From Ginglymostoma cirratum (taxonomy: Eukaryota), in contig JAHRHZ010000018.1 of NCBI GenBank assembly GCA_024137785.1, forward strand, positions 15,103,471 through 15,167,470: a stretch of 64,000 nucleotides of DNA, read 5' to 3'. Below are positions 870-62,216 of this stretch, piece after piece. The position numbers and the translations under genes were made by a program. Position 1 is the stretch's first letter. Each line of letters opens with the position of its first letter. Under the pieces are notes generated by a model. The model was not told the origin of the DNA, did no database searches, and worked only from the letters and a program-made list of their open reading frames with translations.

Positions 870-1045
870 CATGTGGAGGTGCTGGTGTTGGACTGGGATG
901 GACAAGGTCAGGAGTCAGATGACACCAGCTTATAGTCAAAAGGTTTATTTGAAATCACAAGCTTTGAAGTGACTTCACCTGACAAAGGGGCAATGCTCCA
1001 AAAGCTTGTGATTTCAAATAAACCTGGTGTTGTCTGACTTCTGAC
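870..1045. mobile_element. Penelope-like terminal hairpin insertion (family B) with decayed hammerhead motif
   Basis: Inverted arms ~908-966 / 1001-1047 plus ~37-nt unpaired tail; 12-bp TSD CTCATTATGTAT (858-869, 1046-1057); TCAC-CTGACAA-AGGGGC AAT GCTCC-AAAAGCTT-GTGA at 975-1011. Confidence 0.75.
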
Positions 1046-2048: not shown

Positions 2049-2125
2049 GGTTGATGACCATTTTAGATAACATCCTTGTAGATGTCTTTGAAGTTAATAA
2101 ATTGAATAAAAGGAAAAGGAAATAC

Positions 2126-2300
2126 CTATGATCGCCCCCAAGAATGACACAGAGCCGGCCATCTGCTTTTACTTTGTTTACAGCTTGAAATAATTTTGCG
2201 TTTGCTTTCCCCACGGTCCTTGGCATTTTGACAGTTCCGAATGGTTCATCTTTCGGCTCATCTTCAAATGTCAAATTACCATAGTCCTTCAGGTCACAAC
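2126..2300 (-). CDS. ARG1: arginase (ARG1-type) coding exon 3
   Basis: AG/GT-bounded 175-bp exon: (G)CDLKDYGNLTFEDEPKDEPFGTVKMPRTVGKANAKLFQAVNKVKADGRLCVILGGDH(S); GGDH Mn-ligand motif; lacks the extra residue of ARG2 in this exon. Confidence 0.93.
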
Positions 2301-3020
2301 CTTGAAATGTAAAAATGGAAGGAAATTGTGTGTGGTGGGCAAGATAAATGCAAACCTACTCAATCAAGTACAATTTTAGGAATCAGTAAATAATCTATAA
2401 AAGCCCTTAGAGTTCTCAGTAAAGTGCATCTATAGGTGTTGTGAACAAATTTTAGAAACCGGTAAAGTCACAAGTTAAATGTTCTGTGCTGGACTGACTA
2501 GTTGGAATGTGAATACTGACTTCAAAATCCTGTGCCACAGGTGGGAAAAATAACAGACAACCTTCCAAATATCTGGTCCTAACACGGTATTTCCAGCTCA
2601 TGGGACACTGTCCGGTGATGATTTAAATTTACTTAACTCTGATAGCTTTGTAATTAAAGTATTCTCGTTTATGTCATCTGGTCCCAAATATGAAGTATGG
2701 CCATGTGAATTGTGTGTTTTATGTGCTTTATGAAAATGATATGATACAGTATTTAATAAATTTCAGTCGTAACATCTAACAACAGGACACCTTATATTAT
2801 AGTCTTTATAATAGCCAGGCAAAATAACTTGGCCTTTTCTGGACCTTTACAATTTACCACCTGCTCAAAGCTCAAATGTTCAGTTTTATCACTGGAGTTA
2901 GCCAAAAATTTACACTCAATCCCAATTAATAGCCTCATTTCAAGCAAATTTAAAAGTGAATTCACCCAAGCCCCCTTCAACAGCACCTTCCGAACCCATT
3001 ACCACCACCATCCTGGCATA

Positions 3021-3188
3021 GGCGGCACGGTGGCTCTGTGAATAGTCCACAGATGTGCAGGTTCGGTGCATTAGCCGTGGGAAATGTAGAGTGACAGGGA
3101 TAATGTAGGAGGTGGGATGTTCTTCGGAAGGTCGGCGGACTCGATGGGTCGAATGGCGTGCTTCTGCACTGTAGGGATTCTGTGATCT
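3021..3188 (+). mobile_element. internally deleted HE1-like SINE
   Basis: GGCGGCACGGTGGCTC head fused to SINE body and CTGCACTGTAGGGATTCT tail. Confidence 0.7.
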
Positions 3189-3231
3189 CAACGGACAATG
3201 GCAGCAGATACATCATCATCATCATCATCTG

Positions 3232-3408
3232 CAAATCCAAGCCACACGCCATTCTGAACTATATCACCGTTGCTTTGGGTAACAATCCTTTGAGTCTCCC
3301 AGAAAGGTGTGCCAATGTGGACTGCAACGGGTCAAGAAGGCAGCGTGCCACCACCTTCTGAAGAGCAATTAGGATAGGCAATAAATGCTGGCCTAGCCAG
3401 TGACGTCC
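3232..3408 (+). mobile_element. 3' end of second LINE family (L2/CR1 group)
   Basis: Tail CACCACCTTCT...GGCAATAAATGCTGGCCTAGCCAG shared with the copies at 19585-20090 and 32580-33450. Confidence 0.65.
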
Positions 3409-4080
3409 TTTCAATTTTACACTTCCACAAGCCACACGGAGTTCAACAATTTCAGGTCATAAATGCCATCATTCCAGACAGCAGCTGTTAATAATGATTG
3501 CCATTTACACCTCCTTTAGAACAATATTTGCTTTCTTATCCTGTTCGCCGGGCACTATCATCCATTTTGTTACTTAATCTCCCCTGCCTTCCACTTTACC
3601 AGAGGCCAACTTTTTCCTTCTTTCCTTTCCTCTTTACCACTGTGCTTATTTTGAAAACCGATTACCTCTAACTTTTAGTGACTCTGAAAGGTCACCACCC
3701 TTTTTTTTTTGAGTTGTTCAGAATCATCTAACATATCTATTCACCGCCGGTTTAAAAGTTTCATTTTTGTTTTGTTTTCAATTTGAAGAGGTAATGCCTA
3801 TTTGAATATGATTCAGGAACTGCTCGTTAAAAGTGAATAAAAAGGCTTTCAGAGTAATTTTAACTTGTGACTTTTCTTTGTAATGTGAGTGCAGGATTTC
3901 AACCGTCCCCTCTTTGTAGGTACGGTGGATCGATCGCAAAGATTTTGTACGCGCTTTAGGACACGCAAACATATATATTCCCAGCGCAAACTGAAAATGG
4001 AAAAGTTTCCGATCATAACTTGTTGACCTTTTCGGAAATGATTTCAATATTTACGTTCGAATGACTCTCCGAATTATTAC

Positions 4081-4153
4081 CTCCAGCCTGAAGCGCAGTC
4101 AGCAGTCCAGATCTTCTTAAAGCGTCTGGTCCCGTTTTTACACCCTCCTTTCC
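4081..4153 (-). CDS. ARG1: arginase coding exon 2
   Basis: 73-bp exon, TAG| acceptor and |GTAAT donor: GKEGVKTGPDALRRSGLLTALQAG(G), aligns with human ARG1 [25 protein letters not shown]; phases match exons 1 and 3. Confidence 0.92.
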
Positions 4154-4254
4154 CTATAGACATGCATAAGGAGCTTACAGTAAAACAGAAAATAAAAGAG
4201 CCTTTTAAAAATACGGTTTTTCCGAACCCTAACTAGCGCATTCGCACAGCATAC

Positions 4255-4362
4255 CTGTCCCCTTGATAACGGTGCTCCAAGGATTCCTATTTTGTGGTTA
4301 AATCTTCTACAGATGATACTGACACCCTGTTTTAAAAGAATCATTCCCTTTCCGGGTAACAT
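4255..4362 (-). CDS. ARG1: arginase coding exon 1 with N-terminal extension
   Basis: ATG at 4362; MLPGKGMILLKQGVSIICRRFNHKIGILGAPLSRGQ|GTATG; the IGILGAPLSRGQ motif and phase-0 intron after GQ match vertebrate arginases. Confidence 0.92.
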
Positions 4363-4701: not shown

Positions 4702-7476
4702 CAGAGATCGTAGGAACTTCCGAAGCTAGAGTCAGAGATAACACAATGTGTTGCTGGATGAACACAGCAGGCTAGGCAGCATCAGAGGAGCAGGAAAGTT
4801 GACGTTTCGGGTCTGGACCCTTCTTCGGTAATGGGGAAGGGGGCTCTGAAATAAAGAGAACGGGGTAGGCGATGATAGAAGGTGGACAGAGGAGTAGATA
4901 GGTGGAGAGCAGACGGACAGGTCAAGGAGGCGGGGATGAAGCCAGTAAAGGTGAGTGTAGGTAGGGGGTTGAGATGGGGGTTGGTCAGGGACCAGGAAGG
5001 GCGGGTAGGTGGGAGGGAAGTAGGACAGGTTGAGGAGGAGGGAATGAAGCTAGTAGGTAGGAAGTGGGACTTGGGGGGGGTTGGTCAGTGAGGTGGGAGG
5101 AGCTGATAGGTGGGAGAAAAGACGGACAGGTCAAGGAGGTGGGGATGAGATGGGCTGGTCTTGGGATGCGGTAGGGGGAGGGGAGATTTTGAAGCTTGTG
5201 AAGTCCACATTGAGACCATTGGGCTGCAGCGGTCCCAAGCAAAATATGAAGTGCTGTTCCTCCAGCCTTTGGGTGGCATCGTTGTGGCACTGGATGAGGC
5301 CCAGGATGGACATGTTGTCCAAGGAGTCGGAGGGGGAGTTGAAGTGGTTCGCGACTGGGAGGTGTTGTCATTTGTCATGAACCGAGCGTAGGTGTTCCAC
5401 AATGTGGTCTCCAAGCCTCTGTTTGGTTTCCCTGATGTAGCAGAGGCCACATTGGGAAAGAAGGATACAATATACCACATTAGCAGAGATAACAAGATGT
5501 GGAGCTGGATGAACACAGCAGGACAAGCAGCATCATAGGAGCAGGAAAGCTTGACGTTTCAGGCCTAGACCCTTCATTTTCTGATGAGGGGTTTCAGCCC
5601 GAAACATCAAGCTTTCCTGCTGCTATGATGCTGCTTGGCCTGCTCTGTTCATCCAGCTCCACACCTTGTTATCTCAGATTCTCCAGCATCTGCAGTACCT
5701 ATTATCTCTGATACCACATTAGCAGATGTGCAGGTGAATATCTGTTTAATGTGGAAGGTATTCTTGGGGCCTGGGATGGGGGTGAGAGGGGGAAGTGTAG
5801 GGGCAGGTGTAGCACTTCCTGCGGTTGCAGGGAAAAGTGCCGGGAGTGGTGGGGCTAGTGGGGAGTGTGGAGCGGACGAGCGAGTCAAGGAGAGAGCGAT
5901 CTCTCCAGAAGGCAGATAAGGGTGGGGAGGGAAACATATCCTTGGTAGTGGGGTCGGATTGCAGATGGCGGAAGTGTCGGAGAATGATGTGTTGAATCCA
6001 GAGGTTGATGGGGTTGTACATGAGGACCAGGGGAATTCTGTCTTTGCTGTTATTGTGGGGAGGGGGTGTGAGGGCTGAGGTGCAGGGAAAGCGAGAGATG
6101 TGGTCGAGGGCGTTTTCAACCACTGTGGAGGAGAAATTGCTGTCCTTGAAAAACGAGGACATCTGGGCTGTCTGGGAGTGGAATGCCTCATCTTGGGAGC
6201 AGATGCGGCAGAGGCAAAGGAATTGGGAATAGGGGATGGCATTCTTGCAGGAAGGCGGGTGAGAGGAGGTGTATTCTAGGTAGCTGTGGAAGTCGATGGG
6301 CTTGAAGTAGGTATCAGTTTCCAGGTTGTTACCAGAGATGGAGACAGAGAGGTCTAGGAAGGAGAGAGAGGTATCGGAGATGGTCCAGGTGAACTTCAGG
6401 TTGGGGTGGAAGATGTTAGTAAAGTGGATGAACTGTTCGAACTCCTCGTGGGAGCCCAAGGCAGTGTCGATACAGTCATCGATACAACGAGGAAAAGGTG
6501 GGGGATGGGGCCAGTGTAGCTGCGGAAGAGGGATTGTTCCACATATCCTACAAAGAGGCAGGCATAGCTTGGGCCCATGTGGGTACCCATGGCCACCCCC
6601 TTTGTCTGTGGGAAGTGGGAGGAGTTGAAGGAGAAGTTGTTATGGGTAAAGACGAGTTTGGTTAAGTGGATAAGGGTGTCGCTGGAGGGGCGCTGGTCGG
6701 GCCTGTGGGAAAGGAAGAAGCAGAGGGCTTTTAGACCATCTGCATGGGGAATGCAAGTATATAGGGACTGGACATCCGTGGTGAAGATGAGGTGTTGAGG
6801 ACCAGGGAATCGGAAATTTTGGAGGAGGTGGAGGGCTTAGGTGGTGTCACGGACATGGGTGGGGAGTTCCTGGACCAGCGGGGAGAAAATGGAGTTGAGA
6901 TAAGTGGAGGTAAGATCAGTGGGACAGGAGCAGGCAGAGACAATGGGTCGACCAGGGCAGTCAGGTTTATGGATTTTGGGAAGGAAATAGAAACGGGCGG
7001 TGCGGGGTTGGGGAACAATGAGGTTGGAGGCTGTGGGTAGACGGTCACATGAGGTTATGATGGTCTGGGAGATGATGTTTTGGTGGTCAGAGGTGGGGTC
7101 ATGATCAAGGGGGTGGTAGGAGGAAGTGTCAGAGAGTTGGCGCCTGGCATCGGCGATGTAGAAGTCAGTGCGCCATATCACAACTGCGCCTCCTTTGTCC
7201 ACGGGTTTTATAGCGAGGTTAGGGTTGGAGCAGAGGGCTGCATGTTCTGTGGGGGAGAGGTTGGAGTGGGTGAGAGGAGTGGAGAGGTTGAGGCAATTGA
7301 TATTACGATGGCAGTTGGAGATGAAGAGGTCGAGGAGGGTAGGAGGCTTTGGGGTGGTGTCCAGGAGGAAAGGGTGTGTTGGAGGTGGGAATAGGTGTCA
7401 GTAGAGGGGTGGTTAGGTTCACGTTTAAAGAAGTAAGCGTGGAGGCAGCGCAACAACTGTTCAATGTCCAGGCGTG
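4702..7476 (-). mobile_element. 5'-truncated Penelope-like element, Neptune type (RT + Cys linker + GIY-YIG), frameshifted
   Basis: DKGGAVVIW, FYFLPKIHKPDCPGRPIVS, AMGTHMGPSYACLF, RCIDD, SFLDLSV, HPPSCKNAIPYSQF, GTFPCNRRKCYTC linker, NVVYCI...CYI-ETK, HFNSP; terminal repeat with hammerhead-like motif at 4801-4828. Confidence 0.92.
5487..5710. mobile_element. Penelope-like palindromic mini-insertion (family A) nested in the GIY-YIG region
   Basis: ~90-bp inverted arms meeting at ~5578, ~35-nt tail, 15-bp TSD ATACCACATTAGCAG (5472-5486, 5711-5725). Confidence 0.9.
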
Positions 7477-7799
7477 AGAGTATTCATTAATGTTCGAGTG
7501 GAGGGGGATAATGGGATACTCAGCAGGTCTGACAACGTTTGTTGGAGAGGAGTTAACATTAGGACAAAGATCCTTTATCAAAATGTGACATGAAATTATG
7601 TCATACCAATGTTGTGTTATCAGTATGACTAATGGTTGCCAACCAATCAACATACTCCACTAAAACCCAAGCAAAATAATTTGAAGGATGGAAATCTGAA
7701 CGAAAAACAGAAAATGTTGGAAATGATCAGCCAGTCAGCAGCATCTGTAGCAAGAAGAATAGAATTAACACTTCAGATCAGTGCCTTTTCATCAAAGGA

Positions 7800-9411: not shown

Positions 9412-9587
9412 GAGATAACAAGGTGTAGAGCTGGATGAACACAGCGGGCCAAGCAGCATCAGAGGAGCAGGAAGGCTGATGTTTCAGGCCTAGACCCTTT
9501 TCTGAAGAAGGGTCTAGGCCTGAAATGTCAGCCTTCCTGCCTTCCTTATCTCAGATTCTCCAGCATCTGCAGTTCCTACTATCTCTG
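9412..9587. mobile_element. Penelope-like palindromic mini-insertion (family A), right arm partly deleted
   Basis: Arms meet at ~9500; CTGAAGAAGGGTCTAGGCCTGAAATGTC at 9502-9529; same tail as the 5487 copy; no TSD found. Confidence 0.85.
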
Positions 9588-14326: not shown

Positions 14327-14415
14327 ACAAGGTGTAGAGCTGGATGAACACAGCAGGCCAAGCAGCATCAGAGGAGCAGGAAGGCTGACGTTTCGGGCCT
14401 AGACCCTTCTTCAGA
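14327..14415 (-). mobile_element. PLE family A half-arm with intact hammerhead core
   Basis: Minus strand CTGAAGA-A-GGGT CTAG GCCC-GAAACGTC (14414->14387). Confidence 0.85.
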
Positions 14416-26269: not shown

Positions 26270-27053
26270 TGTATCAGAGATAAAAGGTACTGCAGATGCT
26301 GGAGAATCCGAGATAACAAGGCGTGGGGCTGGATGAACACAGCAGGCCAAGCAGCATCATAGGAGCAGGAAAACTTGACGTTTCGGGCCTAGACCCTTCA
26401 TCAGAAATGGGGGAGGGGAAGAGGGTTCTGAAATAAATAGGGAGAGAGGGGGAGGCGGATAGAGGAGTGGATAAGTGGAGAGGAGGCAGACAAGTCGAAG
26501 AGGCGGGGATGGAGCCAGTAAAGGTGAGTGTAGGTGGGGGGGTAGGGAGGAGATAGGTCAGTCCAGGGAGGACGGACAGGTCAAGGGGGCGGGATGATGT
26601 TAGTAGATAGGAGATGGGGGTGGGGCTTGAGGTGGGAGGAGGGGATAGGTGAGAGGAAAAACAGGTTAGGGAGGTGGAGATGAGCTGGGCTGGTTTTGGG
26701 ATGCGGTTGGGGGAGGGGAGATTTTGAAGCTTGTGAAATCCACATTGATACCATTGGGCTGCAGGGTTCCCAAGCTGAATATGATTTGCTGTTCCTGCAG
26801 CCTTCGGGTGGCATCACTGTGGCATTGCAGGAGGCCCAGGATGGACATGTCGTCTGAGGAATGGGAGGGGGAGTTGAAATGCTTCGCGACTGGGAGGTGC
26901 AGTTGTTTGTTACGAACTGAGCGCAGGTGTTCCCGCCTCTTCGACTTGTCTGCCTCCTCTCCACTATCCTCTCCTCTATCCATCCTCTATCCGCCTCCCC
27001 CTCTCTCCCTATTTATTTCAGAACCCTCTTCCCCTCCCCCATTTCTGATGAAG
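26270..27053 (-). mobile_element. 5'-truncated Neptune-type PLE (family A) with inverted 5' segment
   Basis: GIY-YIG C-terminus EHLRSVRNKQLHLPVAKHFNSPSH...LGTLQPNGINVDF; 26931-27053 is an inverted copy of ~26395-26505; 14-bp TSD GGATATGGAAAAAT (26256-26269, 27054-27067). Confidence 0.92.
26373..26408 (-). ncRNA. minimal type-I hammerhead ribozyme motif (best preserved copy)
   Basis: ATTT-CTGATGA-A-GGGT CTAG GCCC-GAAAC-GTC|AAGT: complete core, stem II, palindromic ACGT stem III, GUC cleavage triplet, weak 4-bp stem I. Confidence 0.75.
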
Positions 27054-29869
27054 GGATATGGAAAAATGTTCCGTCTTGTGGGAAATTCTAGAATGAAGGG
27101 GTCACCATTTAAACTTAAAGTTGTCTATTTAAAACAAAGATGAGAAGAATTTTGTTTTTCTCACTGAGGGTCATGAGTGTTTGGAACTCTCTTACTCAAA
27201 AGGCAGTGGAAGCTGGATCTTTAAATATTCTTAAGGCAGAGGTGCATAGATTTGTGTTAAGCAAAGGATTGAAAGGTCATTAAGGGTAGGCAGGAAATTG
27301 GAATAAACAGAACAGCCATGATCTTATTGACTGGCAGAGCAGGCTTCACAGGCTGAGTGGTCTGCTGCTCCTAATTTGTATGTTTATACATTGTACAACG
27401 ATTTAGCAAGCTATTAAAATAATAAATTATGAATTTCCTCAGATGTGCTGCTACTCCACTGCTGAAACTTCACCAGTGCAAAAATCTTGTTTAAATATAT
27501 ATGGATATATAAACAGGGTTTCTGTCATATTTCTAGTGAATGTACAGTGAAGAGTAGAAATATTCCTGCGGAAATTCCCAGCTTCAAACTTGTCTTGTTC
27601 TCTTTTCTGATACAATCTAAGTAGAGTGTACAATATCTATGAAAAATAAGATAAGGCCCTGGCTTCCTATAAAAAGTTGAAATTGCTTGTCAAGCTGATT
27701 TTCAAAAATGTTTTCTCTTTAATGCCTGAGATCTCTGTTGCATGTATTGACACATTACTGTGCAAGAAACCAAATATGGAAACTCTTGTGTAGGCTAAAT
27801 GAAGAAACATGATATGATTGAATGAAAAATGCATCTCCATCTGCCTGGAAGCTCTGTACAAAGGCCTTATTGAAATCTCAGCTGTAAAGACATGTTGTTG
27901 CATCAATTTCAGATATAAGTCATTCAATTATAATTGGAAACAGCCGTATTGATAAAGTTTTGTGGAACTTCTCCTTGTTCCAGAAGTGACAAGAACTGCA
28001 AATCAAAATACAAATACAGTCAATTTCAAAAGTAAATTAAAGAAAAACTTTGTGTCATATATCTTATAGGAGGTGGGTTCATTACATTTAAGGCTGAGTC
28101 TTTTGTACACTTAAATATGGTGACTTAAATGTACAGTGACAGTCACGTTATGATAGTATAAGTAATATGACATATGAAATATTTTTCCATGATGTTATTT
28201 ATGTTTTTTATTTACTTTTCCTTACGTTTCTAGTATTTAGGATTCAGCATTTGATAGAAAGGGAAGCAGTTGCTTGACCCAGTGCTCCTGCTGAGTCTAC
28301 TCTGTAATTATCCACAAAGAGGTGAATGAACAATTTTATTTGTCGCCATATTTCTGATCCCAGTTTATAAAGTTGTATCCGTACTTTATTATTACCCCTC
28401 AGGTTCGAGGCACAAGTACTTAAACTATTTGGACATTTTTTTTACTTTTCTATGATATAGTACCAAAGTATGCAGAATCCATTGGAGTAACAAATGTACC
28501 ATAGCTGGAGTGAAATCATATCAGAAGAAAAATAGAAAGGATATTCGCTCCTGATTTCTGTTCAGTAATCTTCAAAGAGAACAGATTCAGTTTTGTCCTC
28601 AATGACGGAATAATCTGATGATTCTCATTATCTAGGCTTACATTTACAGTTTATTTCTCATTGACTGGCAACAACAATTTGGTGTGGGTGGCCAGTTAAC
28701 CATGTATCACTTTATTACCTAAAAGTGCAGAATGTTTTCCCAACAGAGGCTTCGGAATGGCAAACTATGAAAGAGTTGTAAGCTTGTCCACAGGCTTTGT
28801 AATTAGTATATGTAAAGTTATGCATTTAGGCATGCATCATTAGGCCATGTCTTTATGTCACTGCAACCAAAATCCTGGACCCCACTATACATTAAGCTCC
28901 TAGTTCGCCATATACTTGGCCCCTGGTATGACACTAAAGTATTAACTAAGCTAACCACTCATGATAGTGTAAAGTTCGCACATTTCTGCACAGGCAAATG
29001 GAATGTGAAAGGAACAGTGCTCCCTCCCAACCAATGTATGTATAAGATCTAAAATTACCATTATTATTCCTAATGTGTAAGATCTGCAGATAGTAAGAAC
29101 ATTTTAAAAAGCCTGCTTGTATATTAGTTACCAGTGACAAATTATTCACAAGCTTTATGCATAGAATTTAATAGTCATGGTGGCAGGCCCGTCCATCAGC
29201 TGGCAAGCCAATGACAAATCAACCGTGGTCATTCCAGGTTGTCCTTAACCAAAATAATGTGAATCAGGCACTCATCTAGTTGGAAATGCATCTTCGCTGT
29301 CTTCAGGGTGGATGCCCTGCCTCCAAGGGCTGCTGACCAACCATAGGAAACCCCTCTGGGAGCAGAGGCCACTGCTTGTACTCCTGTAGGATCATTTGTG
29401 GAGCCCTGGAGTAAAGATTGATGAGATGGGATTACAGAGACCAATTGAGTGGCCCCATCAGTGAGGTTAGTTTAAAGAATAGACAGGAAATTTCCAAAGT
29501 GGGTATCTCTTGCAGCCAGTAGGCCTCTCCATTGGGCATGGGCTTCCCAAATAGGAGGGTTCCTGACTTCCCACACCCAAGTCACAGACATATTCACTAC
29601 ATGTTAACTGATGGGTTGTCAATATGTTAAGGCCCCGCAGTGCTACAGCAGTGGTAGGATCAGACCCTTAAGTAGCCTCTGGATGGAAAATCTGTCCTTG
29701 AACATTTGCACTTCAAACTAAATCAGGAAAAGTTGGGAAAGAGACAGGGACTTCACACTGGAAGTTCCTTTTAAAATATATGGCCCTTGCCATACCTTCC
29801 ACCCTGATAATGGAGAAAAAAAATTAGTTAAATTAATAGCTAATAATTTATTAATAAATAATCAATGAC

Positions 29870-35525: not shown

Positions 35526-36552
35526 ACTGAGCAGGAGGAATGTCACCTTCTAGATAGAGCACTGTAGCATCAGCACAACAACCAGACAGAATTTAATTGA
35601 TGCCCAGTTTCATTAGATGTGATCTGGGTGCATTGATCATTCATTGACTGTAAACTTGTTGCTGGAAAGGCAAGCAGTCCCTCTACTTTTTTTGTTTGTT
35701 TCTCCTTTGCTGTTTTTGATGGATCAAAGTGTACATTTGCAACTGTTTGAAGCTTTCCAGTGTGTGATAATCCCAATGAGAAGATATTAGACTATGCTGA
35801 CTATCAGGAATCTGAACCATAAGGAAGTACTCCCTTAGACAGACTTCTAAGTTAGGATGATGCTAAGGAAGGGTATTCTTTGTAGCTCAGTTCTTAAATA
35901 CATTTACATATGTGCACCTGTATTTACAGCGAACTATCAGCCGTTCCAACTATGTGTCCTGAGAAATGTTTCTTTTTAGTTCTCCTCCCAATACATGCAT
36001 CGTGAAGGACAGCTCCTGGTTGGTAGCTCTTGACCTAGTGCACAACTGATGTTTAAAAATGGTGCTAGTGCTGGAAACCTGGGAGGTTCTAGTAGTGGTG
36101 AGTACTTCCATCACTGCTGAGCTCATGATAGTACAAGCAGGGTGTAAGTAGATGTATGGTGCATAGGTAATGAGGCAAGATTATGAGAAAATTGGGTAGG
36201 TCCACAGAGAGCAACCGACCGCGAAATTCCCTAAACTTGACACTTAGACGATTTCTGGTAAAATTTAGCCTTCTGTCTTTGCTCTTGCCTAAAGAATTTT
36301 ACACCACTAATTCTGATGAAAATTCAATAACCTGAAATATAAACTCTGTTTCTCTCCATACATATGTTGCTTGGCCTTTTCAGCACTTACTTGAATTTGA
36401 TACTTATATGTTCTCATCTTAAGTTAAAAGAATGATTGAAAAGCAAAAAGAATCAGTTTTCAATCTACTCATTTTGCGAAGATTGTAAACAAGCTTTTAG
36501 TTTTTTTTAAGATAACCATTTAAAAATTTAAAAAGAAACAACAGATTAAGAT

Positions 36553-37149
36553 GAGATAACAAGCATGGGGCTGGATGAACACAGCAGGTCAAGCAGCATC
36601 ATAGGAGCAGGAAAACTTGACGTTTCNNNNNNNNNNNNNNNNNNNNNNNNNNNNNNNNNNNNNNNNNNNNNNNNNNNNNNNNNNNNNNNNNNNNNNNNNN
36701 NNNNNNNNNNNNNNNNNNNNNNNNNNNNNNNNNNNNNNNNNNNNNNNNNNNNNNNNNNNNNNNNNNNNNNNNNNNNNNNNNNNNNNNNNNNNNNNNNNNN
36801 NNNNNNNNNNNNNNNNNNNNNNNNNNNNNNNNNNNNNNNNNNNNNNNNNNNNNNNNNNNNNNNNNNNNNNNNNNNNNNNNNNNNNNNNNNNNNNNNNNNN
36901 NNNNNNNNNNNNNNNNNNNNNNNNNNNNNNNNNNNNNNNNNNNNNNNNNNNNNNNNNNNNNNNNNNNNNNNNNNNNNNNNNNNNNNNNNNNNNNNNNNNN
37001 NNNNNNNNNNNNNNNNNNNNNNNNNNGGCCTAAACCCTTCATCAGAAATGATGAAGGGTTTAGGCCCGAAACGTCAAGTTTTCCTGCTCCTATGATGCTG
37101 TTTGACCTGCTGTGTTCATCCAGCCCCATGCTTGTTATCTCGGATTCTC
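36553..37149. mobile_element. young PLE family A palindromic mini-insertion spanning an assembly gap
   Basis: Near-perfect inverted arms with apex GAAA at 37044-37048; 14-bp TSD CAACAGATTAAGAT (36539-36552, 37150-37163). Confidence 0.88.
36627..37026. other. assembly gap (400 N)
   Basis: Run of N. Confidence 1.
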
Positions 37150-39334: not shown

Positions 39335-39444
39335 CCAAAATGTCAGCTTTCCTGCTCCTCTGATGCTGCTTGGCCTGCTGTGTTCATCCAGCTCTACACC
39401 TTGTTATCTCAGATTCTCCAGCATCTGCAGTTCCTACTATCTCT
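39335..39444 (+). mobile_element. PLE family A terminal fragment
   Basis: Starts in the 3' half of the hammerhead motif; possible 8-bp TSD ACAAGACT (39324-39331, 39447-39454). Confidence 0.8.
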
Positions 39445-50164: not shown

Positions 50165-51225
50165 CAAAATAAAACAAAGAACTGCAGAAGCTGGAGATCT
50201 GAAACAAAAACAGAAATTTTTGGAGAAACTCAGCAGGTCTGGCAAATCTGTGGGAAGAGGCCAGAAATGTCAGCTTTCCTGCTCCTATGATGCAGCTTGG
50301 CCTGCTGTGTTCATCCAGCTTTACACCTTGTTATCTCAGATTCTCCAGCATCTGCAGTTCCTACTATCTCATAAGCAGAATTAACATTTTGAATCTGATG
50401 ACTCTTCATCAGAACTTTTAGCAGCTAGGAAAACGTGGTGTTTATGCTGAAGCTGAACTTTATTGGGTGGGGGTGAGCGTGTTGGAGTGATGGACAGATT
50501 AGCAGCTAGGTGAAGACAGAGCCCAGAAAGACAGAGATATAAGAGGGGTGGATAAACAAGGTGATTTTGGATAGCAGGCCAGGACAGAAGAAAAGCTGAA
50601 TAAGTGATATTAAAAGCTAAGAGCATGAGAAAATGAGTGAGCTGAACTGAATGCAATCCATATAATGAGATGATGGGCCGAGGAGTATGTGAGAATGGAT
50701 AACTGTGCTAAATGCAACAGGACCAAGTGTGGGGTGGGTAAAAACATGGAAGGATGGAGTCAGGGTCTGAAGTCAGTGAATTTGATGTGAGTCCTAGAGG
50801 CTACAGTGTCCCCAGGCTGAAAATGAGAAGCTGTTCTTTGGGCTTGTGCTGAGGCTCATTGGAAGATTGCAGCAGGGCTGGAACAGAAAAATTGGTGTGT
50901 TGAAGTGGCAGGCAACTAAAAGCTTGGAGTCATTATGGTGGACAGAAAGTAAGTGTTCTGCAAAGCAGGCACCCAATTTGCATTCATCTCCCCAGGGCAG
51001 AAGAGACCACATTGTGAACAGCGAATACAATAAAGTAGATTGAATGAAGTACAGGTGAATCGCTGCTTCACCTGAAAGGTACGTCTGGGACGTTGGATAG
51101 TGAGGTGGGGCGTAAGTAAATGGGCAGGTGTTACAACTTCTGCAATTGCCTGGGAAGGTGCAATGGGAACATTAGGAGATATTAGGAATGGAGGAGGAGT
51201 GCACCAGAGTGTCCCAGAGCGACAC
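50165..51225 (-). mobile_element. older Neptune-type PLE 3' end (family D) with a family A tail nested at ~50261-50370
   Basis: TFQVKQRFTCTSFNLLYCIRCSQCGL; FAEHLLSV...VACHFN; AGTT-CTGATGA-AGAGTC ATCA GATTC-AAAATGTT-AATT. Confidence 0.8.
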
Positions 51226-52239
51226 ACTCTTCTATATTATCACTTATTCAGCTTTTCTTCTGTCCTAGCCTGCATCCATTATCACCTTTTTTGCCTATCC
51301 GCTCATCTCCCTCCACCCCACCCCCATCCCCTGACCCCTAACCTGACAGCAAGGTGTACCTTAAATGCACAGACTAGAGTTCAGGAAGATGGCTCACCAT
51401 CACCTACTCAAGGGAAAGAAGGGATTGGTAATATTTCCTGGGCTTGTCTGTGATACATATTTGCTGTGAATGAAAAAATTAATTATACTAAAACATATTC
51501 AACTGACCTATGCTCTGAGGAAATGATCTTCCCTTCTTTTTCAATATTGTCTACAGACTCAGCAATAAATGCTGTCAGTTTCACTCATGCCCTCCATCTT
51601 GTGCATTAACTTTTTTTTTGAACTGATGATGGTTTGCCTGGTTTGGCCAATCTATTCCCAGACATTCGACGGGACATTACTTTGACTGTCTTCTAGGTGT
51701 ATGAAACTGAAACTGGCAGCTAAAAATAAACTACATTCAAATTGATATTTTTAAAAAGGAACTGGTTCACTAAGCTGCATAAGTTGCATGGATCTGAATT
51801 GATTTTATCATCACTTTAAGACACATTTTGTATTGAAAATTGGATATGAGATGTCCAAATCGAATTCAACAAATAAAACAAATCGTAAGAACTCTTAAAC
51901 TTAATCCATTGCATTTCCTAACTGCCTCAGGCATGCACATGGTGGTTGCCTACAGTGTCTCAATGTGAGTCCTATGAGACTAAGGCAACCTTTATTTCAC
52001 AGCAACATCATTCCAAAATCTTTTGCTGCTGCATCAGCAACCTGAAGTTGCATCTTTTATGTTGCGATTAGACATTAGAAGAACTTGGGTAAAATTCACA
52101 TACGTGCTGCTATTCAGAGATATAGCATCATAATTTAAGTATATTGCTATCATATAGCCAGTACTGCTCAACAGTGCAAAATTGTAGCCACTAATTTGTA
52201 AGAAAGCAGATTTTTAAATAAAGTCAGTGAGTTCTTACC

Positions 52240-59899: not shown

Positions 59900-61106
59900 A
59901 TAAAAACTAAGCGAGAAACGGAAACGCAAAACCATTTGTTTCCACCTGTTTAGTCAACTTGCCGATCACCAGAGAGCGAAAGGACTCCCGCGGATCCCAC
60001 CTTTCAATTTCTATGCTCACAACGGACCAGTTCCTATGTTATTTGCTGTTTCTGTGCATTTGGGAAATGAACATCGATTTCCCTTTTTATTTGACATTTT
60101 TTAAAAAATATAAAGCAAAGGCACAACCCTTCACCATCAATAAGTGATTGTTAAAAAAAAAACACAGCTGCACTGACCCATGACCGACCGTTTTTAATGA
60201 GCGTCCGAACCGCCACTTCCTCGTCCCAATTAGCACTTAACAAAGACTTATCCCCCCAGCGCTGCTCTGGCGTGTTTCACTTTGTTTTTCTTCACTGGCC
60301 TTTCCTCGACTGATTGTTAGCTCTGCCCACGAACACTTTCTTCACGCAGCACACCAATAAACTTCTTTGGGACCACTGCCCTGAAGGTGAAGATTTTCCA
60401 CTTCCAGTATTTAAGAAGGTATTTCTGAAACTGTGGCCCAGAAATGACCACGAATCGAATTGTTAACCGCGAAATCTCCGACAGAGAGCGAAAGGTGTAA
60501 CAAGAGACCCCTCCCCGAACGAAAACTATAAACGTGAATGTGATTGAACTATCCCTGACCAGTGTTTATACCGTCAGCATCCAGCACTCGCCAGTGTTTC
60601 AAGTCAAAAACATAGTCAAGCAACGAATGACACAAAGGTGCGGGGAAGTCAGTAATGGATCGATTTACCTGCATGGCCCGGTCTCCACTTGGTTTCTCTA
60701 ATCCACCGCCCAGACCGTGGTGATCATTTCCAAATCAGTTGTTGAGCGCAAGTAGGTACACGGCATCTTTAAAACTGATTGACTGGGAAAGAGGCGGGTT
60801 AAAAGCGTCTTCTACTCAAACCCGATTGGATCTGTCTGGGAGAGAGAGAGAGAGACAAAGAAAAGGAACTGTTTGAAAGTAACTTACTGACAGAGGCGTT
60901 GCTTTTGGTCTCCACCTCGCGTCCCTCCCGCCCCCGAGTGAATCACCTGCTCTGGTACAGGTTGTACCGCTCTCTCCCTCACCTCTCGCCTGTCACATTG
61001 CTCTAACACCGCCGCGCTCCCTTTGACCTCTCTCCCTCTCTCTCTCTCGAAATTATTCCAACCAGGAAGAGAGGCGAAGATTGGAACAAAAAGGAAAGAG
61101 CGTGTG
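59900..61106 (+). promoter_or_regulatory. CpG-rich promoter / 5'UTR of FoxG gene
   Basis: CpG clearly enriched relative to the window, no recognisable TEs, ATTGG at ~60825, GA tract ~60840-60855, GC-box CCCGCCCCC ~60927. Confidence 0.55.
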
Positions 61107-62216
61107 ATGTTGAACATGGGAGATCAGAAGCAGCCGAAAATGGTCCCAAAGTGCACCTCCTTCAGCATCAAGAGCTTGCTGCTCCCTGAAGCGGCTCAGC
61201 AGCAACAACAGAGTGACAGTAACCAGGGCAGCAGAGTCGGGGACTCCGAGCTCAAAGCTGACTTTAAATACCAGGACAGCCCGGAGACACAGCTCGGCCC
61301 CGCTGAGGAGGAGGAGGAAGACGAACACAAAAAAGGCGAGAAGAAACACGGCAAATATGACAAGCCGCCGTTCAGCTACAACGCCCTGATCATGATGGCA
61401 ATCCGGCAGAGCCCGGACAAGAGGCTCACCCTGAATGGCATCTATGAGTTTATCATGAAGAATTTTCCTTACTACAGGGACAACAAGCAGGGCTGGCAGA
61501 ACTCTATCCGCCACAACCTCAGCCTCAATAAGTGCTTCGTTAAGGTGCCCCGGCACTATGATGATCCGGGCAAAGGCAACTACTGGATGTTGGACCCTTC
61601 CAGCGACGATGTGTTTATCGGCGGGACCACGGGCAAACTGCGGCGGAGATCGGCCACCTCAAGAGGCAAGCTGGCTTTCAAAAGAGGGCTTCGCCTCTCT
61701 CCGTCCGGCCTGGGCTTGATGGACCGGGGTAACCCTTTGTATTGGCCTCTGTCCCCCTTCCTGTCCCTGCACCATCCCCACAACAGCCTCAACTACAGCA
61801 GCGCTGCCTCGAGTTTCCTGAACCAAGCTCCCACTTACAGCTCCTTGCTTTCCGGCTGTGGGGCTGGCGTCGATCAGATGGCTGGCGGGGACCTCTCTCA
61901 CCCGTTGTTAAGGGGATCCGTACAGTGCGGTTTGACCAACGGATACACGGTGAACCCTTGCTCTGTGAGCTTGCTGTCCGGCCAGACTGGCTACTTCTTC
62001 CCATCTCTCCATCACTCGCAGTCAGTGCAACACCAGAACGGAACGGGCATGGGCAACCCTGGCGCTCCATCCAGCTCTCCCCCAGCAGCTTCACCCCTCA
62101 TCACCGAAACCCTCAGACCGTCTCTGTCCACTTTCCCGTCCGGACTCGCCGCTGGATTTACCAGCTACCTGTCACAGCAGAACGGAGGGGCTGCTAGCAA
62201 TTCGTTTTTGCACTGA
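61107..62216 (+). CDS. forkhead box G family transcription factor (FoxG1 paralog, FoxG2/FoxG3 type), single exon, 369 aa
   Basis: MLNMGDQK N-terminus, eh1-like FSIKSLL, FoxG forkhead [18 protein letters not shown]...[57 protein letters not shown]-terminal SNSFLH. Confidence 0.95.

What the first reader, a model, noticed from the sequence alone, without database searches (positions are those of the whole stretch)
5472..5725. Palindromic PLE mini-element with a 15-bp TSD, inserted into a PLE of its own family
Seen: a 224-bp insert made of two inverted ~90-bp terminal-repeat arms plus a ~35-nt unpaired tail, flanked by ATACCACATTAGCAG. Removing it restores FTCTSANVVYCI of the host GIY-YIG domain. 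The same layout recurs at 9412-9587 and 36553-37149, always starting at (G)AGATAACAAG. Established: Penelope elements have inverted pseudo-LTRs and a short optional tail. Inference: these are stereotyped non-coding hairpin products, either a retrozyme-like non-autonomous family or a default abortive TPRT outcome. Transcribed copies would form long dsRNA with hammerheads on both strands.
Basis: partly seen in the sequence, partly recalled or inferred. Interest (0 to 1): 0.7.

Follow-up and report, generated by a model that had tools for sequence, protein, structure and literature searches.

The report
Hairpin-shaped stub of a Penelope retrotransposon
This is a real 224-base hairpin made of two head-to-head copies of the end of a shark Penelope-like retrotransposon, likely a dead, severely truncated insertion of an already described layout rather than a new self-copying element, and mainly useful as a footprint of how these elements integrate.

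Summary
The 224-bp insert (5487-5710) has two ~92-nt inverted arms, a 35-nt tail and a 15-16-bp target-site duplication, and it interrupts the GIY-YIG region of an older Neptune-type PLE whose best protein relatives are from carpet sharks. Two similar hairpins exist in the window but are less uniform than stated: B has an internal deletion and no duplication; C has a 400-N gap and a ~10-nt tail.

The 'non-autonomous family' reading is not supported. The three hairpins belong to three subfamily types, two of them closest to non-hairpin copies, and a hairpin clade is rejected (AU p=0.0017). The three apices differ. Each hairpin keeps the hammerhead CTGANGA motif on one strand only.

Best reading: independent, extremely 5'-truncated insertions of the published layout (inverted pseudo-LTR, tail, TSD). 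They were likely made by priming reverse transcription from both nicked strands and joining the two short cDNAs. Not found in the papers I read: all six arm ends lie within 12 positions at the hammerhead's 5' edge, and long TSDs go with inversion (3 of 4 versus 0 of 6). No genome-wide test was possible.

The parts
5472..5486 (.). Target-site duplication, left copy (15 nt; 16 with the shared A at 5487)
   Evidence: duplicated host codons SANVV align to P0001 on both sides
5487..5577 (-). Tail-less arm: inverted copy of the PLE 3' terminal repeat. Its inner end stops at position +4 of the hammerhead core, so it lacks CTG
5578..5583 (+). Apex spacer (template positions -2 to +3), present only in the tailed arm; 0-nt overlap with the other arm by exact matching
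5578..5675 (+). Tailed arm: sense copy of the PLE 3' terminal repeat
5581..5608 (+). Minimal type-I hammerhead-like motif (CTGATGA, stem II, GAAAC). The triplet reads ATC where most copies read GTC, so it is likely decayed
   Evidence: no Rfam hammerhead hit in the window at E<=1; motif definition from PMC4209133
5676..5710 (+). 35-nt PLE tail; at least 2 and up to 4 further template bases overlap the start of the right TSD copy
5711..5725 (.). Target-site duplication, right copy
4702..7480 (-). Host: older, frameshifted Neptune-type PLE (RT about 7477-5875, Cys-rich linker, GIY-YIG region to about 5155, terminal repeat with tail 4702-4830)
9412..9587 (.). Hairpin B: same polarity as A, ~40-nt deletion in the tailed arm, full tail, no long TSD
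36553..37149 (.). Hairpin C: 400-N gap inside the left arm, ~10-nt tail, 14-bp TSD at 36539 and 37150
26275..27055 (-). Copy D: 780-bp 5'-truncated PLE with tail and a 124-nt inverted 5' arm ending inside the hammerhead; TSD 14 bp exact
14327..14415 (-). Single-arm copy S14, 5' end at position 0 of the hammerhead core; closest relative of hairpin B
39338..39444 (+). Single-arm tailed copy S39
50258..50370 (+). Single-arm tailed copy S50, inserted in the terminal repeat of a second PLE family

Best explanation
The insert is two head-to-head copies of the 3' terminal repeat of a Neptune-type Penelope-like element between a duplicated 15-16-bp target site, likely formed in one integration event in which both nicked target strands primed short cDNAs that were then joined at their inner ends, leaving a likely dead copy. 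Steps: (1) inferred from the TSD: the element's GIY-YIG endonuclease nicks the two strands 14-16 nt apart. (2) Inferred by analogy with the anole PLE in vitro, which cuts and extends both strands and starts RT at two sites separated by the tail: one strand primes at the tail end and the other at the tail-less site (GAGATAACAAG on the + strand), on template RNA from the same source subfamily. (3) End positions shown, cause inferred: both cDNAs stop after ~90-135 nt at the 5' edge of the hammerhead motif, next to a C-rich tract (an RT stall point or the RNA's 5' end). (4) Junctions shown, mechanism inferred: the two ends are joined with 0-2 nt overlap and gaps are filled, giving hairpin + tail + TSD. 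(5) Shown for this window: such hairpins arose separately in at least three subfamily types and do not form a lineage. Landing in an older copy of the same family is likely chance.
For: Anatomy and TSD. Independent origins: diagnostic columns group B with single arm S14 (2 of 68 mismatches) and C with ORF-bearing D (3 of 75), with A apart. AU test p=0.0017 against a hairpin clade, and 0 of 200 bootstrap trees group them (10 rows, B's deleted right arm and two old fragments left out). Apices differ: inverted arms end at +4, +7, -4 and tailed arms start at -2, -2, +2 relative to the core's C. Single arms start at 0, +15, +18, and two older fragments at about -5 and +41. For two template passes: in C the left arm holds template positions -4 to +1 that the right arm lacks, and the right arm holds ~10 nt of tail that the left lacks, so neither can be a plain copy of the other. 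TSD >=14 bp in 3 of 4 inverted copies versus 0 of 6 others, Fisher p=0.033, post hoc. Literature: PMC11167929 reports that both strands are cleaved and extended, a predicted dimer, tail = distance between two RT start sites, and uncleaved RNA as the main substrate. PMC3846280 reports inverted pLTR + tail + 9-10-bp TSD, and a nested insertion into another Penelope.
Against: Only 3 hairpins in 64 kb; no genome-wide sample. B has no TSD. The two arms of each hairpin share their subfamily type, and C's arms share 3 private variants against D, which fits a single template and fold-back as well as two transcripts of one source. A and B alone are compatible with fold-back, since the tailed arm contains the other arm entirely. 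The argument from C relies on joining its halves across a 400-N gap (supported only by its TSD). PMC11167929 found initiation at sites not homologous to the cut DNA, whereas A, C and D show 2-4 nt overlaps with the target. One short, tail-bearing, TSD-free copy near A's type was not found in the window, so A's source subfamily is represented by A alone. PMC8557442 attributes the tail to endonuclease resolution rather than to two priming sites.
Confidence: 0.6

Rival explanations
1. Fold-back: one cDNA primed at the tail end stalls at the hammerhead, folds on itself, copies itself back, and is resolved by the endonuclease at the tail-less site. The hairpin is still an independent dead insertion; only step 2 differs.
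For: In A and B the tailed arm contains the other arm entirely. Arms within a hairpin share variants. The template has a weak quasi-palindrome at the apex, with a predicted cDNA stem-loop of -2.6 kcal/mol. PMC8557442 calls the tail most likely a product of endonuclease resolution.
Against: In C each arm has sequence the other lacks. Exact apex overlaps are only 0, 1 and 2 nt, little for self-priming. The predicted stem-loop is weak.
Confidence: 0.27
2. A self-propagating palindromic non-autonomous element (retro-MITE or retrozyme-like), with a separate hairpin master in each subfamily.
For: 3 hairpins in 64 kb with the same polarity and the same tail-less end; apices within 12 positions. pLTRs suffice for mobilisation in trans (PMC3846280). 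PLE-derived non-autonomous elements exist (PMC8557442; bioRxiv 10.64898/2026.07.22.740005).
Against: No two hairpins share an apex or a subfamily type; clade rejected. No tandem direct units. One core motif per hairpin, largely paired in A's predicted stem. Arms run ~25 nt 5' of the hammerhead cleavage site, so they were not copied from a self-cleaved RNA.
Confidence: 0.1
3. Assembly fold-back artefact or post-insertion rearrangement.
For: C spans an assembly gap; PMC8557442 notes that inverted PLE structures trouble short-read assemblies.
Against: A is gap-free. Its arms differ at ~10 of 92 positions (an artefact would be near-identical), and its TSD duplicates host codons exactly as in an intact relative.
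Confidence: 0.03

Closest known systems
Canonical EN+ Penelope-like element insertion with 5' inverted pseudo-LTR, tail and TSD (e.g. Pen2a_Av, PMC3846280; general scheme in PMC8557442)
   Same: Inverted 5'-truncated copy next to a sense copy, 30-40-nt tail on one arm only, TSD, nesting in another Penelope in opposite orientation; a tandem copy without inversion lacked a TSD.
   Different: No ORF or direct pLTR between the arms; TSD 14-16 bp rather than 8-10; Neptune-type rather than Penelope/Poseidon; recurrent apex at the hammerhead's 5' edge.
Opposite-strand pairs of minimal hammerheads 100-700 bp apart in Schistosoma, ascribed to truncated PLEs (PMC4209133)
   Same: Short head-to-head PLE terminal fragments centred on the minimal hammerhead.
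   Different: Here the arms meet inside the motif, so only one strand keeps the core; that paper gave no TSD or apex analysis in the parts I read.
Poseidon element of Anolis (PAc) in vitro TPRT (PMC11167929)
   Same: Two RT start sites separated by the tail; both strands cut and extended; short cDNAs covering the hammerhead region.
   Different: Different clade; inverted genomic products were not reported in the main text; AT-rich ATT preference not evident at A, C or D.
Animal non-LTR retrozymes (bioRxiv 10.64898/2026.07.22.740005)
   Same: Non-coding, derived from PLE pLTR, carry a type-I hammerhead, similar size range.
   Different: Retrozymes are head-to-tail tandem units with at least two complete hammerheads; this is head-to-head with one decayed core.
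L1 twin priming (recalled; only a search listing seen)
   Same: Second target strand primes a second cDNA; the two are joined by microhomology inside a TSD.
   Different: L1 gives an inversion of non-overlapping RNA parts; here the same region is copied twice.

Membership tests
EN+ Penelope-like element (host copy 4702-7480) | PLE-type RT followed by C-terminal GIY-YIG endonuclease in one ORF | tested here: met
   tblastn of P0001/P0005/P0006 maps RT then endonuclease region in order across frameshifts. Pfam gave only a weak RVT_1 hit (E 0.006) and no GIY-YIG hit on the decayed pieces; relative P0016 carries PF00078 and PF01541.
Neptune clade | Cys-rich domain between RT and endonuclease (definition from PMC3846280) | tested here: met
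   Host reads CNRRKCYTC at that position, as P0001 does.
Neptune clade | Phylogenetic grouping with named Neptune RTs | not tested
   No named Neptune reference sequence was available from a tool.
PLE insertion architecture (hairpin A) | Terminal sequence is the element's 3' terminal repeat | tested here: met
   80.5% over 113 nt to the host's 3' end, 91% over 133 nt to D's 3' end.
PLE insertion architecture (hairpin A) | Inverted 5'-truncated copy, 30-40-nt tail on one end, TSD | tested here: met
PLE insertion architecture (hairpin A) | Minimal hammerhead motif in the terminal repeat | tested here: inconclusive
   Core CTGATGA, stem II and GAAAC are present, but the triplet reads ATC; Rfam gave no hit; cleavage untested.
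Non-LTR retrozyme | Head-to-tail tandem units, at least two with complete hammerheads | tested here: not met
   Arms are inverted; none of 4 TRF arrays lies in a hairpin; one core per hairpin.
Non-LTR retrozyme | Self-cleaved circular RNA in vivo | not testable with these tools
   No RNA data.
Non-autonomous TE family (MITE-like) | Copies share fixed internal structure and form a clade | tested here: not met
   3 of 3 apices differ; AU p=0.0017; window only, n=3.
Non-autonomous TE family (MITE-like) | High genome-wide number of near-identical copies | not testable with these tools
   No eukaryotic genome collection was available.

The most novel reading that the evidence does not exclude
Each wave of this shark PLE spawns its own hairpin master that is transcribed and re-inserted by the PLE enzyme: a palindromic, protein-free retroelement (a retro-MITE), with the hammerhead fold acting as a programmed reverse-transcription stop that sets its size.
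Probability: 0.1. Interest if true: 0.65.

Novelty: new member of a known kind. Interest (0 to 1): 0.32.

Why it matters
How PLEs make their inverted structures is named as an open question in PMC8557442. If these stubs are as dense genome-wide as in this window (3 in 64 kb), they are a large natural dataset. Each records the nick stagger (TSD), both priming sites and the cDNA stop, enough to decide between double priming and fold-back by computation alone. They also matter practically: they can be misannotated as MITEs or structured RNAs, and one sits on an assembly gap. As an element in itself, the locus is likely inert.

Tried and rejected
Rfam scan of the window at E<=1: one chance hit, no hammerhead family. 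Pfam on host pieces: no GIY-YIG hit.

A scan of bacterial/archaeal genomes for stray copies gave 3 loci, each matching only the 19-20-nt seed, i.e. chance.

Two protein searches with a stop-free 72-codon frame across A's apex, meant to sample mis-predicted proteins from other hairpins, failed. One found nothing; the other found 4 hits, all with 5-8 matched stretches; the 3 that I read were unrelated tandem-repeat proteins.

The bacterial promoter/terminator scan was irrelevant and empty. The hammerhead pair count had helix I columns placed by hand out of register, so that part is void; stem II was 88.6% paired with no covariation above shuffles.

A search for B's empty site among window repeats found no other copy.

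Rejected: targeting of its own family. The host covers ~4% of the window, so at least 1 of 7 younger insertions landing in it has probability ~0.27 (hand calculation). Also rejected: my early impression of 2-nt microhomology at every apex (exact values 0, 1, 2). The four loop differences between A's arms are not evidence of two templates, since no other copy shares three of them.

Full report
Observation. The repeat ATACCACATTAGCAG(A) begins at 5472 and 5711 and brackets a 224-bp insert, 5487-5710. The 15-mer occurs nowhere else in the window, and 0 of 3000 random flank pairs of the same geometry reached 15 nt; 1 reached 14. The insert consists of arms 5486-5577 and 5584-5675 (92 nt, 89% complementary), a 6-nt spacer and a 35-nt tail. 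Its RNA fold is -150.5 kcal/mol, better than 200 of 200 shuffles. Leaving out the insert and one repeat copy gives an open frame. The whale-shark protein P0001, which reads FTCTSANVVYCI there, aligns its SANVV on both sides of the insert, which confirms the duplication independently.

Host. The flanks are a decayed element on the minus strand, about 4702-7480, with RT, a Cys-rich linker and a GIY-YIG region in order. The best of 21 protein hits are from whale shark, zebra shark, a stingray and a bamboo shark (75-61% identity), so the window is likely from a carpet shark (inference). The Cys-rich linker is the Neptune criterion given in PMC3846280; I did not build a tree with named Neptune sequences. 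The host's terminal repeat differs from every other copy at 10-15 of ~75 columns: the same family broadly, but an older copy and not A's source. A's tailed arm is opposite to the host.

Family census in the window. BLAST with the insert finds ten loci: the host end, hairpins A, B and C, a 780-bp copy D with an inverted 5' arm, single arms S14, S39 and S50, and two older fragments (19.4 kb, 40.4 kb). B lacks ~40 nt of its tailed arm and has no flanking repeat over 5 nt. C has a 400-N gap, a ~10-nt tail and a 14-bp TSD. D has a 14-bp exact TSD, and its inverted arm ends inside the hammerhead rather than at GAGATAACAAG.

Family or independent events. Over the 75-column core, B's left arm differs from S14 at 2 of 68 columns, C's left arm from D at 3 of 75, B from C at 12-13 of 75, and A from these at 5-10. 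A tree of 10 rows (B's deleted right arm and the two old fragments left out) joins C with D at 98/97 support. It needs 3 label changes for 'hairpin' (shuffled mean 3.6; 197 of 500 shuffles as low) and rejects a hairpin clade at AU p=0.0017. The group was named before the tree, but after I had seen the alignment. Relative to the C of the hammerhead core, the inverted arms end at +4, +7 and -4 and the tailed arms start at -2, -2 and +2, with overlaps of 0, 1 and 2 nt. So the apices cluster within 12 positions but are all different. S14 starts at 0, S50 at +15, S39 at +18, and the two old fragments at about -5 and +41. The cluster is therefore a truncation hotspot shared with non-hairpin copies, not a hairpin signature. 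With n=3 this does not exclude a separate hairpin master per subfamily.

Hammerheads and RNA. A minimal type-I motif (definition from PMC4209133) is present on the + strand of A and B only. In C the CTGATGA core is on the - strand, next to the gap, and the + strand lacks the first C. A's triplet reads ATC instead of GTC. In A's predicted hairpin most of the core is paired. Rfam found no hammerhead in the window. The arms extend ~25 nt 5' of the expected cleavage site, so the template was uncleaved RNA (inference), as in the anole element in vitro. Arginase coding exons lie on the minus strand at about 4255-4344, 4080-4155 and 2110-2290, so A is ~1.15 kb upstream of the start codon. An upstream non-coding exon or another transcript cannot be excluded.

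Mechanism. PMC11167929 shows a PLE protein cutting and extending both target strands and starting RT at two sites whose distance equals the tail, and it predicts a dimer. The simplest reading of hairpin + one-sided tail + long TSD is that each nicked strand primed one cDNA, one at each start site, and that both stopped near the hammerhead's 5' edge and were joined. Two local facts favour this over fold-back. In C each arm has template sequence the other lacks. And TSDs of 14 bp or more occur in 3 of 4 inverted copies but 0 of 6 others, whose longest flank repeats are 5-9 nt (Fisher p=0.033, post hoc). Against it: C's halves are linked across a gap, B has no TSD, A and B fit fold-back, arms within a hairpin share variants, and PMC8557442 ascribes the tail to endonuclease resolution. 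Why cDNAs stop there is not shown: a stall at the C-rich tract or ribozyme fold, or the RNA's 5' end. In Drosophila Penelope the start lies 46 nt before an intron whose end maps to the hammerhead, so a start exactly at the motif is not established.

Comparison with the known. An inverted 5'-truncated copy, a one-sided 30-40-nt tail, a TSD and nesting in another Penelope are all published (PMC3846280; PMC8557442; PMC8969392). So are opposite-strand hammerhead pairs 100-700 bp apart ascribed to truncated PLEs (PMC4209133). Retrozymes are defined as tandem direct units with at least two complete hammerheads (bioRxiv 10.64898/2026.07.22.740005), which is not met. I found no description of ORF-less PLE hairpins with an apex hotspot in ten searches. 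The library lacks most subscription papers, including the two main PLE reviews, and Repbase/Dfam were not searchable.

What I saw of each paper: PMC11167929 parts 1-2 of 4 (main text and start of methods); PMC3846280 parts 1-3 of 5; PMC4209133 parts 1-2 of 4; the bioRxiv preprint part 1 of 5 plus passages; PMC8557442 and PMC2377424 passages; PMC8969392 passages and supplement passages. L1 twin priming is recalled.

Verdict. Interest 0.32, mainly because a genome-wide census would directly test how PLE inversions arise.

Noticed in passing
window 60942-62216 (+): Single 424-codon frame with a forkhead domain (E 9e-40) that looks FoxG-like (label recalled), possibly one of the extra FoxG paralogues of sharks.
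   Followed up: partly
window ~2110-4344 (-): First three coding exons of an arginase gene; the host PLE ends ~360 bp upstream of its start codon and points towards it.
   Followed up: partly
window 50170-51330: A second PLE family copy (endonuclease remnant 50789-51231) also carries an inverted 5' arm (50554-50612 vs 51235-51292), and copy S50 is inserted in its terminal repeat.
   Followed up: partly
window 26932-27055: D's inverted arm matches D's own body exactly apart from an 11-12-nt indel, and its outer end shares 2 G with the TSD, suggesting second-strand priming at a non-canonical site by microhomology.
   Followed up: partly
window 36627-37026: The only assembly gap in the window (400 N) sits inside hairpin C; the flanking sequence suggests only ~2 template bases are missing.
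   Followed up: partly
window 5584-5608: An ATG overlapping the hammerhead core lies 25 nt before the expected cleavage site in subfamilies reading CTGATGA, similar to the 26 nt reported for the anole element; subfamilies reading CTGAAGA lack it.
   Followed up: no
window 941-1025: Unrelated short element with a perfect 25-nt inverted repeat and 35-nt spacer (I12).
   Followed up: no
window 11656 (-) and 41560 (+): Two further minimal-hammerhead-like motifs with stem II outside this family; the 11.6-kb one resembles the second PLE family's end.
   Followed up: no
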